Below are positions 14,204-16,099 of a DNA stretch of 16,099 nucleotides, piece by piece (positions within the stretch are counted from its first letter, which is position 1; each line of letters starts with the position of its first letter). Origin of the DNA: a virus (lineage: Duplodnaviria > Heunggongvirae > Uroviricota > Caudoviricetes); the IMG/VR virus record IMGVR_UViG_2802429227_000005, positions 1 to 16,099 of that record; one strand, written 5' to 3'. The notes under the pieces were generated by a model. The model searched no databases and was not told the DNA's origin. It was given only the letters and a program-made list of their open reading frames with translations. The position numbers were made by a program, and so were the translations under genes.

Positions 14204-14388
14204 ACGCCACAATTCAAACGATACCAGAGCTTCTTATCCAGACACGAGGCAATCAGACCGAAGTGGCGAGGATGCTTTCCTGCGCAAGAGGAACAGTGCT
14301 CAAGTACAACCGAGACAGCAAAGGCGAGCGTCACGTAATAGTTAACGGCGTCCTGATGGTCACGCCAGGCAAAAAGGGAAGACGATGA
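14200..14388 (+). CDS. ninH: NinH-like small HTH protein (62 aa)
   Basis: TIPELLIQTRGNQTEVARMLSCARGTVLKYNRDSKGERHVIVNGVLMV against lambda NinH TIPDMLVEAYGNQTEVARRLKCSRGTVRKYVDDKDGKMHAIVNDVLMV. Confidence 0.7.
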   Translation: MNATIQTIPELLIQTRGNQTEVARMLSCARGTVLKYNRDSKGERHVIVNGVLMVTPGKKGRR

Positions 14389-14903
14389 GCATAAGAGAGC
14401 TAAACCTCACCAAAGAACAGCACGATTGGCTGAATGGCTGGCTTGAACTGTGGGGCGCATGGGTTTATTCAGGTCGTCTGGAAAAGCGCATGAGCAGCGT
14501 AATAGCGAAGTTCATGGAGAGCGTAGAGCCGGGAAGAGTTATGACAAGGCCAATGTGCAATGATGATGATGGAATGTTGATTTCTCAGGTCGTCGATTCT
14601 GTCATGTGCATTGACAAGAAAGCCTTTGGCATCCTCCTCAGCTACTACGCTCATGGTTCATCTAAGCGAGCAATTGCATCCTACTATCACGCGACTGCAA
14701 AGCCACGCAAGATGTGTGGACGCGGTGGCGAGGGATGGAGAAAACCTTCACTGGCAACCTGTAGAAACGAAATTGACGATATCCTGAAAGCGTCATTATT
14801 TGTTTTGTACCAACCAATGCAAAATGCTTTCAAAATGCGTAAACGTGTTGAGAAAGTTAAGCATGTTGCTGTTAAAAGCCTTGACATGCAATTAGCCATT
14901 TAG
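14385..14903 (+). CDS. Q: Late-gene antiterminator Q, non-lambda type (172 aa)
   Basis: Last gene before a PR'-like promoter and the lysis cassette; N-terminal LELWGAWV motif and Cys-rich segment resemble non-lambda Q families as I recall them; ATGA-coupled to ninH. Confidence 0.55.
   Translation: MSIRELNLTKEQHDWLNGWLELWGAWVYSGRLEKRMSSVIAKFMESVEPGRVMTRPMCNDDDGMLISQVVDSVMCIDKKAFGILLSYYAHGSSKRAIASYYHATAKPRKMCGRGGEGWRKPSLATCRNEIDDILKASLFVLYQPMQNAFKMRKRVEKVKHVAVKSLDMQLAI
14678..14710 (-). promoter_or_regulatory. paQ-like CII-dependent antisense promoter inside Q: TTGC-N6-TTGC (14697..14710) then 13 nt then -10 TAGGAT (14678..14683)
   Basis: Minus strand TTGCGTGGCTTTGC-AGTCGCGTGATAG-TAGGAT; identical spacing architecture to the pRE-like site at 8779..8811. 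Confidence 0.45.
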
Positions 14904-14910
14904 CCATAAT
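14881..14910 (+). promoter_or_regulatory. PR' late promoter candidate (-35 TTGACA at 14881..14886, 18-bp spacer, -10 CATAAT at 14905..14910); qut expected to overlap
   Basis: Consensus-like hexamers overlapping the Q stop codon; oriented toward S/R. Confidence 0.45.
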
Positions 14911-14920
14911 TAGAGGGTAA

Positions 14921-14962
14921 GCTGCCATTAGTGACTCTTAAGTTGCAACGGTGGCTTTTTTT
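14921..14962 (+). terminator. tR'-like terminator candidate: weak hairpin followed by a T7 run (14956..14962)
   Basis: GCCATT...GGTGGC imperfect stem (includes G-U pairs) then TTTTTTT; lies about 45 nt downstream of the predicted PR' start. The hairpin is weak. Confidence 0.3.
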
Positions 14963-15382
14963 GTTTGCACAACAGGTAAGAGCATTGAACCCTCAGACCT
15001 CGCGGAATTGGTGAAAGGTGCCGCGCAGTGCTCTTATCGTTGTGGTGAATGCACAGGCTGATGTGTAAGGGCAAGAATCTTTCGCTGGATTCGGTGTGGC
15101 CACGTAGCCCGCTGTAGGCAGTTGCAGCAAACCGGAGATCAGCACCGGTCGCCACAATCCAAACTGAGCCGTAGCCACTGGCTATCCTGAACTCATCAGT
15201 GATAGTTATGCTGCGGCCTTCTACATATGACCTTCGTGAAAGCGGGTGGCAAGAGGCTGCGCTAACAACCTCATGCCGTTTTGCCCGTGCATATCGGTCA
15301 CGAACAAATCTGATTACTAAACACAGTAGCCTGGATTTGTTCTATCAGTAATCGACCTTATTCCTAATTAAATAGAGCAAAT

Positions 15383-15396
15383 CCCCTTATTGGGGG
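15383..15396 (+). promoter_or_regulatory. sdi-like stem-loop (CCCC-TTATT-GGGG) immediately upstream of the dual start of S
   Basis: Hairpin overlapping the Shine-Dalgarno for the Met1/Met3 starts (ATGAAGATG at 15403..15411), as in lambda S translational control. Confidence 0.5.
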
Positions 15397-15402
15397 TAAG
15401 AC

Positions 15403-15726
15403 ATGAAGATGCCAGAAAAACATGACCTGTTAGCTGCCATTCTCGCGGCAAAGGAACAAGGCATCGGGGCAATCCTTGCGTTTGCAATGGCGTACCTTCG
15501 CGGCAGATATAATGGCGGTGCGTTTACAAAAACAGTAATCGACGCAACGATGTGCGCCATTATCGCCTGGTTCATTCGTGACCTTCTCGACTTCGCCGGA
15601 CTAAGTAGCAATCTCGCTTATATAACGAGCGTGTTTATCGGCTACATCGGTACTGACTCGATTGGTTCGCTTATCAAACGCTTCGCTGCTAAAAAAGCCG
15701 GAGTAGAAGATGGTGGAAATCAATAA
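15403..15726 (+). CDS. S: Holin S, lambda type, with dual start (S107 antiholin / S105 holin; 107 aa)
   Basis: Translation [107 protein letters not shown] is essentially lambda S as I recall it. Confidence 0.9.
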
Positions 15727-16045
15727 TCAACGTAAGGCGTTCCTCGATATGCTGGCGTGGTCAGAGGGAACTGATAACGGACGACAGAAAACCAGAAATC
15801 ATGGTTATGACGTCATTGTAGGCGGAGAGCTATTCACTGATTACTCAGATCACCCTCGCAAACTTGTCACGCTAAACCCAAAACTCAAATCAACAGCAGC
15901 CGGGCGCTATCAGCTTCTTTCCCGTTGGTGGGATGCCTATCGTAAGCAGCTTGGCCTGAAAGACTTCTCTCCGAAAAGCCAGGACGCTGTGGCACTGCAA
16001 CAGATTAAAGAGCGTGGCGCTTTACCGATGATTGATCGCGGTGAT
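15710..16045 (+). pseudogene. R: Endolysin R (lambda-type lytic transglycosylase) truncated after codon 112 by an IS2 insertion
   Basis: Translation [42 protein letters not shown]...IKERGALPMIDRGD matches lambda R, then at 16046 the frame runs into IS2 terminal sequence (WICPYISRHLL...) instead of continuing as lambda R does. Confidence 0.85.
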
Positions 16046-16099
16046 TGGATTTGCCCCTATATTTCCAGACATCTGTTATCACTTAACCCATTACAAGCC
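16046..16099 (-). mobile_element. IS2 right end (inverted repeat plus the 3' end of the transposase ORF), partial, cut by the window edge
   Basis: TGGATTTGCCCCTATATTTCCAGACATCTGTTATCACTTAACCCATTACAAGCC is the reverse complement of the IS2 right terminus as I recall it; minus strand 16057..16099 encodes ...ACNGLSDNRCLEI-stop, the transposase C-terminus. Confidence 0.8.

What the first reader, a model, noticed from the sequence alone, without database searches (positions are those of the whole stretch)
15302..15355. Interleaved inverted repeats upstream of S that could form a pseudoknot or alternative hairpins
GAACAAATC (15302..15310) pairs with GATTTGTTC (15334..15342), and TGATTACT (15311..15318), which lies inside that loop, pairs with AGTAATC(G) (15347..15354) outside it. 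This A-B-A'-B' order is the topology of an H-type pseudoknot, or of two mutually exclusive hairpins, in the late mRNA leader about 50 nt upstream of the sdi structure. It could modulate S translation or RNA stability, or be a protein-binding palindrome pair.
Basis: seen in the sequence. Interest (0 to 1): 0.4.

Follow-up and report, generated by a model that had tools for sequence, protein, structure and literature searches.

The report
Conserved folded leader before phage holin
The two interleaved repeats are really there, but only the first is conserved: it belongs to a triple repeat inside a roughly 170-base folded RNA leader that lambda-like phages keep in front of their lysis-timing (holin) gene, and the proposed pseudoknot has no comparative support.

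Summary
Observation confirmed. GAACAAATC (15302-15310) pairs 9/9 with GATTTGTTC (15334-15342), and GATTACT (15312-15318) pairs 7/7 with AGTAATC (15347-15353). This interleaved order occurs in 1 of 2000 shuffles of the leader.

The pseudoknot reading is not supported. Across 41 diverged homologous leaders, pair B/B' is paired in about 49% of cells, the same as shuffled controls. Loop-to-spacer complementarity beats shuffles in only 1 of 28 distinct combinations, the lambda type. Natural lambda-type variants break B/B' seven times with no compensating change.

Pair A/A' is real. Its 7-bp core is paired in 41/41 leaders. Its 3' arm, GGATTTGTTC (15333-15342), is invariant. That arm is also complementary to a third copy, GAGCAAATCC (15375-15384), paired 41/41, and this third copy runs into the known sdi stem.

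The A and C folds are predicted to be nearly equal in energy (median difference -0.4 kcal/mol). The whole stretch 15233-15396 behaves as a conserved plus-strand RNA structure, with compensatory changes in two upstream helices. It precedes holins of at least three Pfam families, all with dual starts.

It matches no Rfam family. The CUS-3 record annotates the same stretch only as a 'boundary sequence'. My best reading is a cis-acting leader with alternative hairpins that tunes holin translation or mRNA processing. The function is inferred, not shown.

The parts
14881..14910 (+). pR'-like late promoter (TTGACA-18-CATAAT) at the end of the Q-like gene. It places the finding about 390 nt into the late transcript.
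   Evidence: 11 of 12 consensus matches; Q-like ORF 14385-14903; annotation of the CUS-3 homolog
15233..15239 (+). P0 5' arm, TTCGTGA. It pairs with 15298-15304.
   Evidence: I4, 7/7; 98.9% of cells paired in 41 leaders, nearly invariant
15242..15288 (+). P1 irregular hairpin. P1a is 15242-15247 with 15283-15288. P1b is 15248-15256 with 15269-15277. A GTTTT bulge lies at 15278-15282.
   Evidence: P1a 97% paired, with a C-G / U-A / U.G exchange at one pair; P1b has 7 of 9 pairs with changes on both sides. By eye, other classes carry entirely different stem sequences.
15298..15304 (+). P0 3' arm, TCACGAA. It overlaps copy 1 by GAA (15302-15304).
15302..15310 (+). Repeat copy 1, GAACAAATC.
   Evidence: I3; core GAACAAA paired 41/41 (284 Watson-Crick + 3 G.U cells); positions 8 and 9 paired in only 10/41 and 27/41
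15311..15318 (+). Bases 15314-15318 also form the 5' side of a small apical hairpin with 15325-15329 (AGTAG).
   Evidence: apical hairpin in the minimum-energy fold; the G15329A variant turns U.G into U-A
15333..15342 (+). Repeat copy 2 (inverted), GGATTTGTTC. It is the shared 3' arm of helix A and 5' arm of helix C, and is invariant.
   Evidence: (invariant columns)
15347..15354 (+). In the predicted fold, 15351-15355 (ATCGA) instead pairs with TCGGT 15294-15298 as a nested extension of helix A.
   Evidence: minimum-energy fold; T15352C in 6 leaders breaks B/B' but makes G15297-C15352; G15297A makes A-U
15343..15374 (+). A/U-rich spacer between copies 2 and 3. It is 23-32 nt long in the family and contains a semi-conserved ATTCYTAAT motif.
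15375..15384 (+). Repeat copy 3, GAGCAAATCC. This is the 3' arm of helix C; in the window the helix extends to 13 bp, 15333-15345 with 15372-15384. Its last bases are also the start of the sdi stem.
   Evidence: I1 and D2; 10-bp core paired 41/41 (400 Watson-Crick + 10 G.U, no mismatch)
15382..15396 (+). sdi stem-loop (TCCCC TTATT GGGGG), nt -21 to -7. It sequesters the GGGGG Shine-Dalgarno that serves Met1.
   Evidence: local fold -8.0 kcal/mol; element positions as summarised in bioRxiv 10.1101/2025.05.14.654169
15403..15726 (+). S holin gene with a dual start (ATG 15403 and ATG 15409; MKM...).
   Evidence: Pfam PF05106, E 2.4e-30

Best explanation
The finding is one piece of a conserved, structured, cis-acting RNA leader on the late (plus-strand) transcript, directly upstream of the holin start.

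Anatomy, shown by comparison of homologs:
- A closing helix P0 (15233-15239 / 15298-15304) encloses an irregular hairpin P1.
- Then come three copies of one 10-nt motif: copy 1 GAACAAATC (15302-15310), inverted copy 2 GGATTTGTTC (15333-15342) and copy 3 GAGCAAATCC (15375-15384).
- Copy 2 can pair with copy 1.
- Copy 2 can instead pair with copy 3 (helix C). The last bases of copy 3 are also the first bases of the sdi stem, which hides the Shine-Dalgarno for the antiholin start.
- Neighbouring helices therefore overlap in a chain: P0 and A share GAA, A and C share all of copy 2, and C and sdi share 1-3 nt.

Inferred mechanism. The leader partitions between an 'A + sdi' fold and a 'P0 + C' fold. 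That partition sets how the ribosome, and perhaps RNases, see the holin initiation region. It would thereby tune holin/antiholin output or mRNA stability, and so lysis timing.

It is better explained by nested pairings than by a pseudoknot.
For: The stretch is conserved.
- 190 phage records match it, from Escherichia, Salmonella, Shigella and Klebsiella phages, down to 71% identity in P22. A related class occurs in a Pantoea phage.
- Two viral-contig scans gave 173 unique leaders, reduced to 43 representatives below 93% identity.

Structure is supported on 41 representatives.
- RNAalifold predicts P0, P1a and helix C.
- The full model is 86.6% paired against 83.3% in shuffles (0/500). Its covariation score is 0.160 against 0.114 (0/500). 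Slid controls give about 37%.
- The helix A core is paired 41/41 and the helix C core 41/41, with no mismatch.

The substitution pattern points to plus-strand RNA.
- Every substitution in copies 1 and 3 is A-to-G opposite a U of copy 2, giving G.U. These fall at 2 positions in copy 1 and 4 positions in copy 3. They would be C.A mismatches on the other strand.
- P1a has 51 G.U cells against 1 A.C cell.

Helix A is a real hairpin. The copy1-to-copy2 segment differs in sequence and length (41-62 nt) in seven classes. In each it folds into one extended hairpin, with z from -1.9 to -5.3.

The two states are near-isoenergetic. The ensemble free energy of the helix A state minus that of the helix C state has a median of -0.4 kcal/mol, range -4.2 to +4.0. 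P(A) + P(C) is about 1 in most of the 41 leaders.

Removing the 5' domain in silico shifts the balance. P(A) goes from 0.54 to 0.81, P(C) from 0.42 to 0.18 and P(sdi) from 0.47 to 0.63.

The leader is coupled to holin starts. It precedes holins of PF05106, PF16080, PF16083 and one unassigned family. The five clearest types begin with two Met codons two or three codons apart; the sixth type (MRPGSLM...) is less clear. In every leader where a start could be called, an sdi-like hairpin of differing sequence begins in the CC of copy 3.
Against: - There are no compensatory double changes in the cores of helix A or helix C. The columns are almost invariant, so classical covariation neither supports nor refutes them. 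A sequence-specific binding site would look the same.
- Predicted Shine-Dalgarno accessibility does not differ systematically between the two states (mean unpaired probability 0.30 against 0.31). The link to start-site choice is therefore not supported by simple thermodynamics.
- In the window itself helix A is predicted at 0.99 and helix C at 0.00, so bistability may be weak in this lineage.
- P1b shows 54 A.C cells against 10 G.U cells. This is the opposite of the plus-strand signature. It is partly an alignment problem.
- Search pattern 1 fixed part of copy 1, and pattern 2 fixed copies 2 and 3. Some of the invariance is therefore ascertainment.
- No experimental data on this stretch could be retrieved. 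The known S control region is nt -21 to +47 only.
Confidence: 0.5

Rival explanations
1. H-type pseudoknot. Helix A (15302-15310 / 15334-15342) and helix B (15311-15318 / 15347-15354) form together and modulate S translation or RNA stability.
For: Both stems exist and are perfect. The interleaved 9+7 arrangement occurs in 0.05% of shuffles. In the lambda type, loop-spacer complementarity is better than 97% of shuffled spacers (-8.1 against -4.7 kcal/mol). The isolated B duplex is worth -6.9 kcal/mol.
Against: - Helix B is paired in about 49% of cells across 41 homologs, equal to shuffles (272/500).
- Only 1 of 28 distinct loop/spacer combinations beats shuffles; the median z is +0.25.
- In 77 lambda-type leaders, seven carry changes in B' that break helix B (T15352C in 6 leaders, C15353A in 1) and none is compensated.
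- T15352C and G15297A instead fit the nested pairing 15294-15298 / 15351-15355, which is the one in the minimum-energy fold.
- Arm B also forms the apical hairpin.
- The geometry is strained. This is inference from general pseudoknot stereochemistry: 0-1 nt between the two 5' arms, and only 4 nt (15343-15346) to cross a 9-bp stem.
Confidence: 0.05
2. DNA-level 'boundary sequence'. The stretch is a homology patch between the Q/late-promoter module and the lysis module. It is kept similar by frequent recombination among lambdoid phages, and the repeats have no function of their own.
For: - The CUS-3 record annotates the 241 bp upstream of S as 'bsq3; boundary sequence'.
- Mosaic junctions fall at or inside the invariant blocks. 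L138 has a lambda-type 5' domain joined to a P22-type 3' part at copy 1. L131 and L139 have an unrelated 5' domain joined at copy 1. Oslo and PS119 have a lambda-type leader joined to a class II holin at the sdi loop.
- The same leader sits in front of unrelated holins.
Against: - Passive homology does not explain the compensatory changes in P1a, P1b and sdi.
- It does not explain the exclusively wobble-compatible A-to-G substitutions in copies 1 and 3.
- It does not explain the retained hairpin despite a 20-nt insertion.
- The two ideas are not exclusive. A functional RNA would also serve as a crossover patch.
Confidence: 0.15
3. Sequence-specific binding sites. The three copies of GAACAAATCC / GGATTTGTTC bind a host or phage protein, on RNA or on DNA, and complementarity between them is a by-product.
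For: The copies are the most invariant blocks of the leader, more so than pairing alone requires. They show no compensatory double changes, while neighbouring helices covary freely. Copies 1 and 3 are direct repeats (D2).
Against: - The only tolerated changes keep RNA pairing, and they occur only on the A-rich copies, never as T-to-C in copy 2. A symmetric DNA site should not show this asymmetry.
- Three-way pairing by itself predicts frozen sequence.
- No candidate protein is known, and no literature was found.
Confidence: 0.15
4. Processing and stability element. P0+P1, about 22 bp of irregular duplex, is an RNase III-type cleavage site. Cleavage there would separate variable upstream cargo from the lysis mRNA. 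The helix A hairpin would then sit near the new 5' end as a protective stem-loop.
For: - P0, P1a and P1b stack to about 22 bp and are supported by covariation.
- The region between Q and this leader is highly variable: tRNA genes in Oslo and different leaders in other phages.
[quoted passage not shown] 1988, Virology 167:568) exists. It is cited in PMC7547250.
- In P22, an abundant small RNA, P22E, ends just 5' of this domain. Its sequence is given in PMC13397905 and was compared with alignment A1.
Against: The positions of the RNase III sites in the 1988 paper could not be read, so the link is unverified. The hypothesis does not explain copy 3 or its overlap with sdi.
Confidence: 0.15

Closest known systems
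sdi (structure-directed initiation) stem-loop and dual-start control region of lambda S and P22 gene 13
   Same: Same transcript and strand. Both are RNA hairpins upstream of the two holin start codons. Copy 3 of the repeat (15375-15384) shares its last 1-3 nt with the sdi stem (15382-15396). The sdi hairpin covaries in the same set of phages.
   Different: The characterised control region comprises four elements between nt -21 and +47 (summary in bioRxiv 10.1101/2025.05.14.654169). The finding lies at nt -101 to -49 and the triple repeat at -101 to -19. No experiment is known to me for them.
'Boundary sequences' of lambdoid phages (bsq3 in the CUS-3 record CP000711; from my own knowledge, the concept comes from the HK620 genome paper, Clark et al. 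2001, which I could not read here)
   Same: It is the same DNA stretch: 241 bp immediately upstream of S. Mosaic junctions occur at its conserved blocks.
   Different: That concept is DNA-level, a recombination linker. It says nothing about RNA folding, the triple repeat or the link to sdi.
Leader switches with overlapping alternative helices (1:2 / 2:3 / 3:4 topology, as in the trp attenuator or riboswitch expression platforms)
   Same: One segment (copy 2) is complementary to two partners. The alternative helices overlap their neighbours in a chain that ends at a ribosome-binding-site hairpin. The sequence of the shared segment is frozen.
   Different: There is no leader peptide conserved across classes; indels that are not multiples of three separate the classes in alignment A2. 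No intrinsic terminator was found. No ligand or trigger is known, and the output is unproven.
H-type RNA pseudoknots (for example, translational-control pseudoknots in phage and viral mRNAs)
   Same: The A-B-A'-B' order of two perfect stems in the window.
   Different: Stem 2 is not conserved and is not compensated when broken. The connecting loops are very short. Nested alternatives are predicted and fit the natural variants better.
RNase III processing hairpins in lambda leaders (N leader, sib); named from established knowledge
   Same: P0+P1 is a long irregular hairpin of about 22 bp in the leader of a phage operon.
   Different: Cleavage is not shown here. The finding itself (helix A and B) lies 3' of that hairpin.

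Membership tests
H-type RNA pseudoknot | Two stems in interleaved order (the 5' arm of stem 2 lies in the loop of stem 1) | tested here: met
   I3 is 15302-15310 / 15334-15342 and I6 is 15312-15318 / 15347-15353
H-type RNA pseudoknot | Both stems maintained (conserved or covarying) in homologs | tested here: not met
   stem B about 49% paired, equal to shuffles; 1 of 28 loop/spacer combinations beats shuffles; 7 breaking variants and 0 compensations.
H-type RNA pseudoknot | Loop lengths able to span the stems, and a net stability above nested alternatives | tested here: inconclusive
   The loops are 0-1 nt and 4 nt (read from the sequence). The B duplex is -6.9 kcal/mol. No pseudoknot energy tool was available. 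Nested alternatives occupy both B and B' in the minimum-energy fold.
lambda S translational initiation region (sdi and dual start) | Lies within nt -21 to +47 of S and contains the SD-sequestering stem | tested here: not met
   The finding spans nt -101 to -49 (15302-15355; AUG1 is at 15403). The sdi stem itself is present at 15382-15396.
Alternative-helix leader switch | One segment complementary to two different partners, with both pairings kept in homologs | tested here: met
   copy 2 pairs with copy 1 (7-bp core) and with copy 3 (10-bp core) in 41/41 leaders, with no mismatch.
Alternative-helix leader switch | The two folds are of comparable stability | tested here: met
   median difference -0.4 kcal/mol, range -4.2 to +4.0. 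This is in silico only. The window itself favours helix A by 4.2 kcal/mol.
Alternative-helix leader switch | A trigger and a regulatory output | not testable with these tools
   Predicted Shine-Dalgarno accessibility does not differ between the states. In-silico removal of the 5' domain shifts the balance.
Lambdoid 'boundary sequence' (bsq3) | Conserved non-coding stretch at the junction of the Q / late-promoter module and the lysis module, with mosaic junctions at it | tested here: met
   annotation; 190 records; junctions at copy 1 and at the sdi loop.
Any Rfam family | Match to a curated covariance model | tested here: not met
   the only hit at E up to 1 is snoU85 on the minus strand, 15.2 bits against a gathering score of 41. 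It is spurious.
RNase III processing site | About two turns of mostly continuous double-stranded RNA | tested here: met
   P0 (7) + P1a (6) + P1b (9) = 22 bp with internal loops, at 15233-15304.
RNase III processing site | RNase III-dependent cleavage | not testable with these tools
   Daniels et al. 1988 is known to me only by its title. The full text is not held.

The most novel reading that the evidence does not exclude
The leader is a conformational relay. Four conserved helices overlap their neighbours in a chain: P0 and A share GAA, A and C share all of copy 2, and C and sdi share 1-3 nt. The state of the far-upstream domain, intact or removed by processing or unfolding, would be passed about 150 nt downstream to the sdi hairpin. 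It would thereby set the holin/antiholin start-codon ratio. This would be a portable lysis-timing control cassette, shared by unrelated holin families in lambdoid phages.
Probability: 0.15. Interest if true: 0.7.

Novelty: new member of a known kind. Interest (0 to 1): 0.4.

Why it matters
Lambda S is the textbook lysis timer. Its control is described as four elements within nt -21 to +47.

If the conserved leader upstream (nt -170 to -19) really folds into alternative states that touch sdi, several things follow:
- the accepted model of holin/antiholin partition and of lysis-time setting is incomplete;
- constructs that lack the native leader may not report native regulation;
- it would explain why this non-coding stretch is kept nearly unchanged across phages that have swapped both their Q genes and their holin genes;
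- it would add a widespread, easily tested RNA family to phage annotation.

If the leader is only a recombination patch, the finding is ordinary.

Tried and rejected
- Rfam scan of 14300-16099 at E up to 1: only a spurious snoRNA hit.
- tRNA scan of the window: none.
- Terminator scan of 14850-15500: none, so helix A is not an intrinsic terminator by that consensus.
- Genome-collection scan with GGATTTGTTCN{20,40}CAAATCC. The pattern was too loose for 596 Gb. All 120 returned loci were chance matches in unrelated taxa, and none was recognised by an nhmmer profile of the leader.
- Literature. Searches on late leader / RNase III / S gene, boundary sequence, sdi / dual start, the repeat sequences themselves, Lozeron, and S105/S107 found nothing on this stretch. 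Daniels 1988, Nam 1990 and Chang 1995 are not held.
- P22E small RNA (PMC13397905). I considered it as a transcript of the element, but its sequence ends just upstream of P0, so it does not cover the element.
- The 50-codon ORF 15199-15351 as a leader peptide. Rejected, because classes differ by indels that are not multiples of three in A1 and A2.
- The idea that helix C exposes the Shine-Dalgarno: not borne out by predicted accessibility across 41 leaders.
- Plus-strand signature in P1b: A.C mismatches outnumber G.U there, so I do not use that helix as strand evidence.

Full report
WHAT THE WINDOW IS

The window is the early-right to lysis region of a P22-like (Kapi1/CUS-3-type) lambdoid prophage. 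A Q-like antiterminator gene lies at 14385-14903. A pR'-like promoter lies at 14881-14910. The lambda-type holin gene S is at 15403-15726 with the dual start MKM. The endolysin gene follows and is cut at about 16045 by the end of an IS2 element. The finding (15302-15355) therefore lies in the late-transcript leader, at nt -101 to -49 relative to the first S start codon. It corresponds to lambda 45085-45138, since lambda coordinate = window coordinate + 29783.

THE OBSERVATION

Both repeats are real. The pair 15302-15310 / 15334-15342 is 9/9 complementary. The pair 15312-15318 / 15347-15353 is 7/7, with an eighth U.G pair possible. In 2000 dinucleotide-preserving shuffles of the 486-nt leader, a perfect repeat of at least 9 bp appears in 5% and an interleaved 9+7 arrangement in 0.05%. 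The 68-nt stretch folds with z = -2.95.

The 3' arm of A, extended to GGATTTGTTCTAT (15333-15345), is complementary to ATAGAGCAAATCC (15372-15384). And TTCGTGA (15233-15239) is complementary to TCACGAA (15298-15304), which overlaps arm A by three bases.

RELATIVES

The 211 bp upstream of S match 190 phage records, from about 99% identity (CUS-3, IME10, lambda at 96.7%) down to 71% (P22). In Oslo and PS119 the match stops exactly at the holin start, because a different holin follows. The CUS-3 record annotates the stretch only as 'bsq3; boundary sequence'.

Two pattern scans of viral contigs gave 173 unique leaders, which I oriented with an nhmmer profile. Clustering at 93% identity left 43 representatives, of which 41 full-length ones form alignment A2. 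They fall into several classes. One class has a 20-nt insertion between arms A and A', and it also occurs in a Pantoea phage.

On A2, the 7-bp core of helix A (GAACAAA / TTTGTTC) is paired in 41/41 leaders: 284 Watson-Crick and 3 G.U cells, with no mismatch. Positions 8 and 9 are paired in only 10/41 and 27/41.

Helix B is paired in about 49% of cells. The whole A+B structure is no better than shuffled controls (272/500 shuffles reach it). A search for any loop-to-spacer complementarity, sequence by sequence, beats shuffled spacers in only 1 of 28 distinct combinations, the lambda type.

Within 77 lambda-type leaders, arm B' carries T15352C in six leaders and C15353A in one. Both break helix B, and arm B never changes. 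T15352C instead converts G15297.U15352 into a G-C pair in a nested pairing of ATCGA (15351-15355) with TCGGT (15294-15298). That nested pairing is part of the predicted minimum-energy fold. G15297A likewise gives an A-U pair. Arm B also forms a small apical hairpin (15314-15318 / 15325-15329), and the natural variant G15329A improves it.

The pseudoknot is therefore not supported. I cannot exclude it for the lambda lineage alone.

WHAT IS CONSERVED INSTEAD

RNAalifold on A2 predicts P0, P1a and helix C (copy 2 with copy 3), not helix A. The model with P0, P1a, P1b, the apical hairpin and helix C is 86.6% paired against 83.3% in shuffles (0/500). Its covariation score is 0.160 against 0.114 (0/500). 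Slid controls give about 37%.

P1a and P1b carry compensatory changes. One P1a pair is C-G in lambda, U-A in P22 and U.G elsewhere. Seven of the nine P1b pairs change on both sides. The 10-bp core of helix C is paired 41/41: 400 Watson-Crick and 10 G.U cells, with no mismatch.

Every substitution seen in copies 1 and 3 is A-to-G opposite a U of copy 2. Copy 2 itself never shows T-to-C. That asymmetry is what RNA pairing on the plus strand predicts, and it is not what a symmetric DNA site predicts. P1a agrees, with 51 G.U against 1 A.C. P1b does not, with 54 A.C against 10 G.U, partly through misalignment, so I do not lean on it.

Helix A is nevertheless a real hairpin. In seven classes whose copy1-to-copy2 segments differ in sequence and length (41-62 nt), the segment folds into one extended hairpin. 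Each has the same 7-bp base, a class-specific second tier that engages the GG of copy 2, and an apical stem, with z from -1.9 to -5.3.

TWO STATES

In most leaders the predicted probabilities of helix A and helix C sum to about 1. The split ranges from 0 to 1 among homologs; for example P22 is 0.46/0.52 and the window is 0.99/0.00. With each helix enforced in turn, the ensemble free energies differ by a median of -0.4 kcal/mol, range -4.2 to +4.0.

The absence of compensatory double changes in the copies fits a three-way constraint, since a change in copy 2 would need two simultaneous compensations. It fits sequence-specific recognition equally well, so I keep that as a rival.

LINK TO THE KNOWN CONTROL REGION

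The characterised S initiation region has four elements. They are the GGGGG Shine-Dalgarno (-12 to -7), UAAG (-6 to -3), the upstream stem-loop at -21 to -7 (sdi), and an intragenic stem-loop at +31 to +47 (bioRxiv 10.1101/2025.05.14.654169). In the window, sdi is 15382-15396.

Copy 3 ends at 15384, so helix C and sdi compete for 1-3 nt. This overlap is present in every leader where a start could be called.

The same leader precedes holins of Pfam families PF05106, PF16080 and PF16083 and one unassigned family. The five clearest types begin with two Met codons two or three codons apart; the sixth (MRPGSLM...) is less clear. Each has an sdi-like hairpin of different sequence: CCCC/GGGG, CCUCAC/GUGAGG, CCUCC/GGAGG or CCCCAA/UUGGGG. 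The leader, sdi and the dual start thus travel together as a cassette.

MECHANISM

Shown: conserved plus-strand RNA structure, and a segment (copy 2) with two conserved partners.

Inferred: the leader partitions between 'helix A + sdi' and 'P0 + helix C', and this tunes initiation at the holin starts or the fate of the mRNA.

In silico, removing the 5' domain raises P(A) from 0.54 to 0.81 and P(sdi) from 0.47 to 0.63. This fits a relay from P0 to sdi. However, predicted Shine-Dalgarno accessibility is the same in both states on average, 0.30 against 0.31. I therefore rate the specific relay idea at 0.15 and the general cis-acting-leader reading at 0.5.

A processing role is a compatible alternative. 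P0+P1 gives about 22 bp of irregular duplex. A 1988 paper reports RNase III sites in the lambda late leader, but I know it by title only.

KNOWN OR NEW

No Rfam family matches. No paper in the searchable library describes the stretch. The existing label is the DNA-level 'boundary sequence'.

I file it as a probable new member of a known kind, a cis-acting structured mRNA leader with alternative helices. The caveat is that older subscription literature could not be read.

The broader claim, alternative hairpins in the late leader that bear on S, is partly supported but with a different partner.

Noticed in passing
window 16046-16099 (junction near 16045): The window ends in the terminal sequence of IS2. 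It is 100% identical to multi-copy 'IS3-like element IS2' ends in 3343 E. coli genomes. Homology to intact endolysin genes stops at about 16045. The R endolysin gene of this prophage is therefore interrupted, and the prophage is probably lysis-defective.
   Followed up: partly
window 15257-15268 (P1b loop) and the same position in L135, L079, L019, L075: The loop of the P1b hairpin occurs in both orientations among homologs: GCGCTAAC against GTTAGCGC, and GCGTCAAC against GTTGACGC. The stem is kept. This looks like hairpin-loop inversion by template switching at a quasi-palindrome.
   Followed up: no
L003 (P22) about 1175-1200 and most non-lambda-type leaders; absent from the window (its counterpart is 15195-15232): Just upstream of P0, most classes carry AAAAGAAAACCCAGCnnnnnGCTGGG. 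Read on the minus strand, this is a hairpin followed by TTTTCTTTT, that is, a terminator-like site facing the lysis genes. The published P22 small RNA P22E (PMC13397905) ends inside it.
   Followed up: partly
window 15357-15368 with 15389-15400; direct repeat CCTTATT at 15356-15362 and 15385-15391: The spacer sequence CTTATTCCTAAT can form 12 pairs (3 of them G.U) with ATTGGGGGTAAG, which covers both Shine-Dalgarno elements of S. In the predicted minimum-energy fold this pairing replaces sdi (-88.3 against -86.6 kcal/mol). P22 has a partly matching pair, TTCAT with GTGAG. I did not test it systematically.
   Followed up: partly
L138, L131/L139/L143/L155, L006 (Oslo), L007 (PS119), L075: Mosaic junctions sit exactly at the invariant blocks. 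Examples: a lambda-type 5' domain joined to a P22-type 3' part at copy 1; an unrelated 5' domain with its own 9-bp hairpin joined at copy 1; a lambda-type leader joined to a class II holin at the sdi loop; a P22-type leader joined to a lambda-type S.
   Followed up: partly
window 14977-14984 with 15029-15036: A perfect 8-bp inverted repeat, TAAGAGCA / TGCTCTTA, with a 44-nt loop lies in the part of the late leader that is not shared with lambda. No tRNA or Rfam match was found there. In phage Oslo, two tRNA genes occupy the equivalent interval.
   Followed up: no
holin starts behind the shared leader (L007, L149, L024, L156, L222 and others): Holins of at least three Pfam families, and one with no Pfam match (MFRMNTSNGFW..., 93-108 aa), share the leader. 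The five clearest types begin with two Met codons two or three codons apart (MKM, MKKM, MYRM, MFRM, MKNM, MNKM); the sixth (MRPGSLM...) is less clear. The dual-start arrangement appears to be tied to the leader rather than to the protein family.
   Followed up: partly
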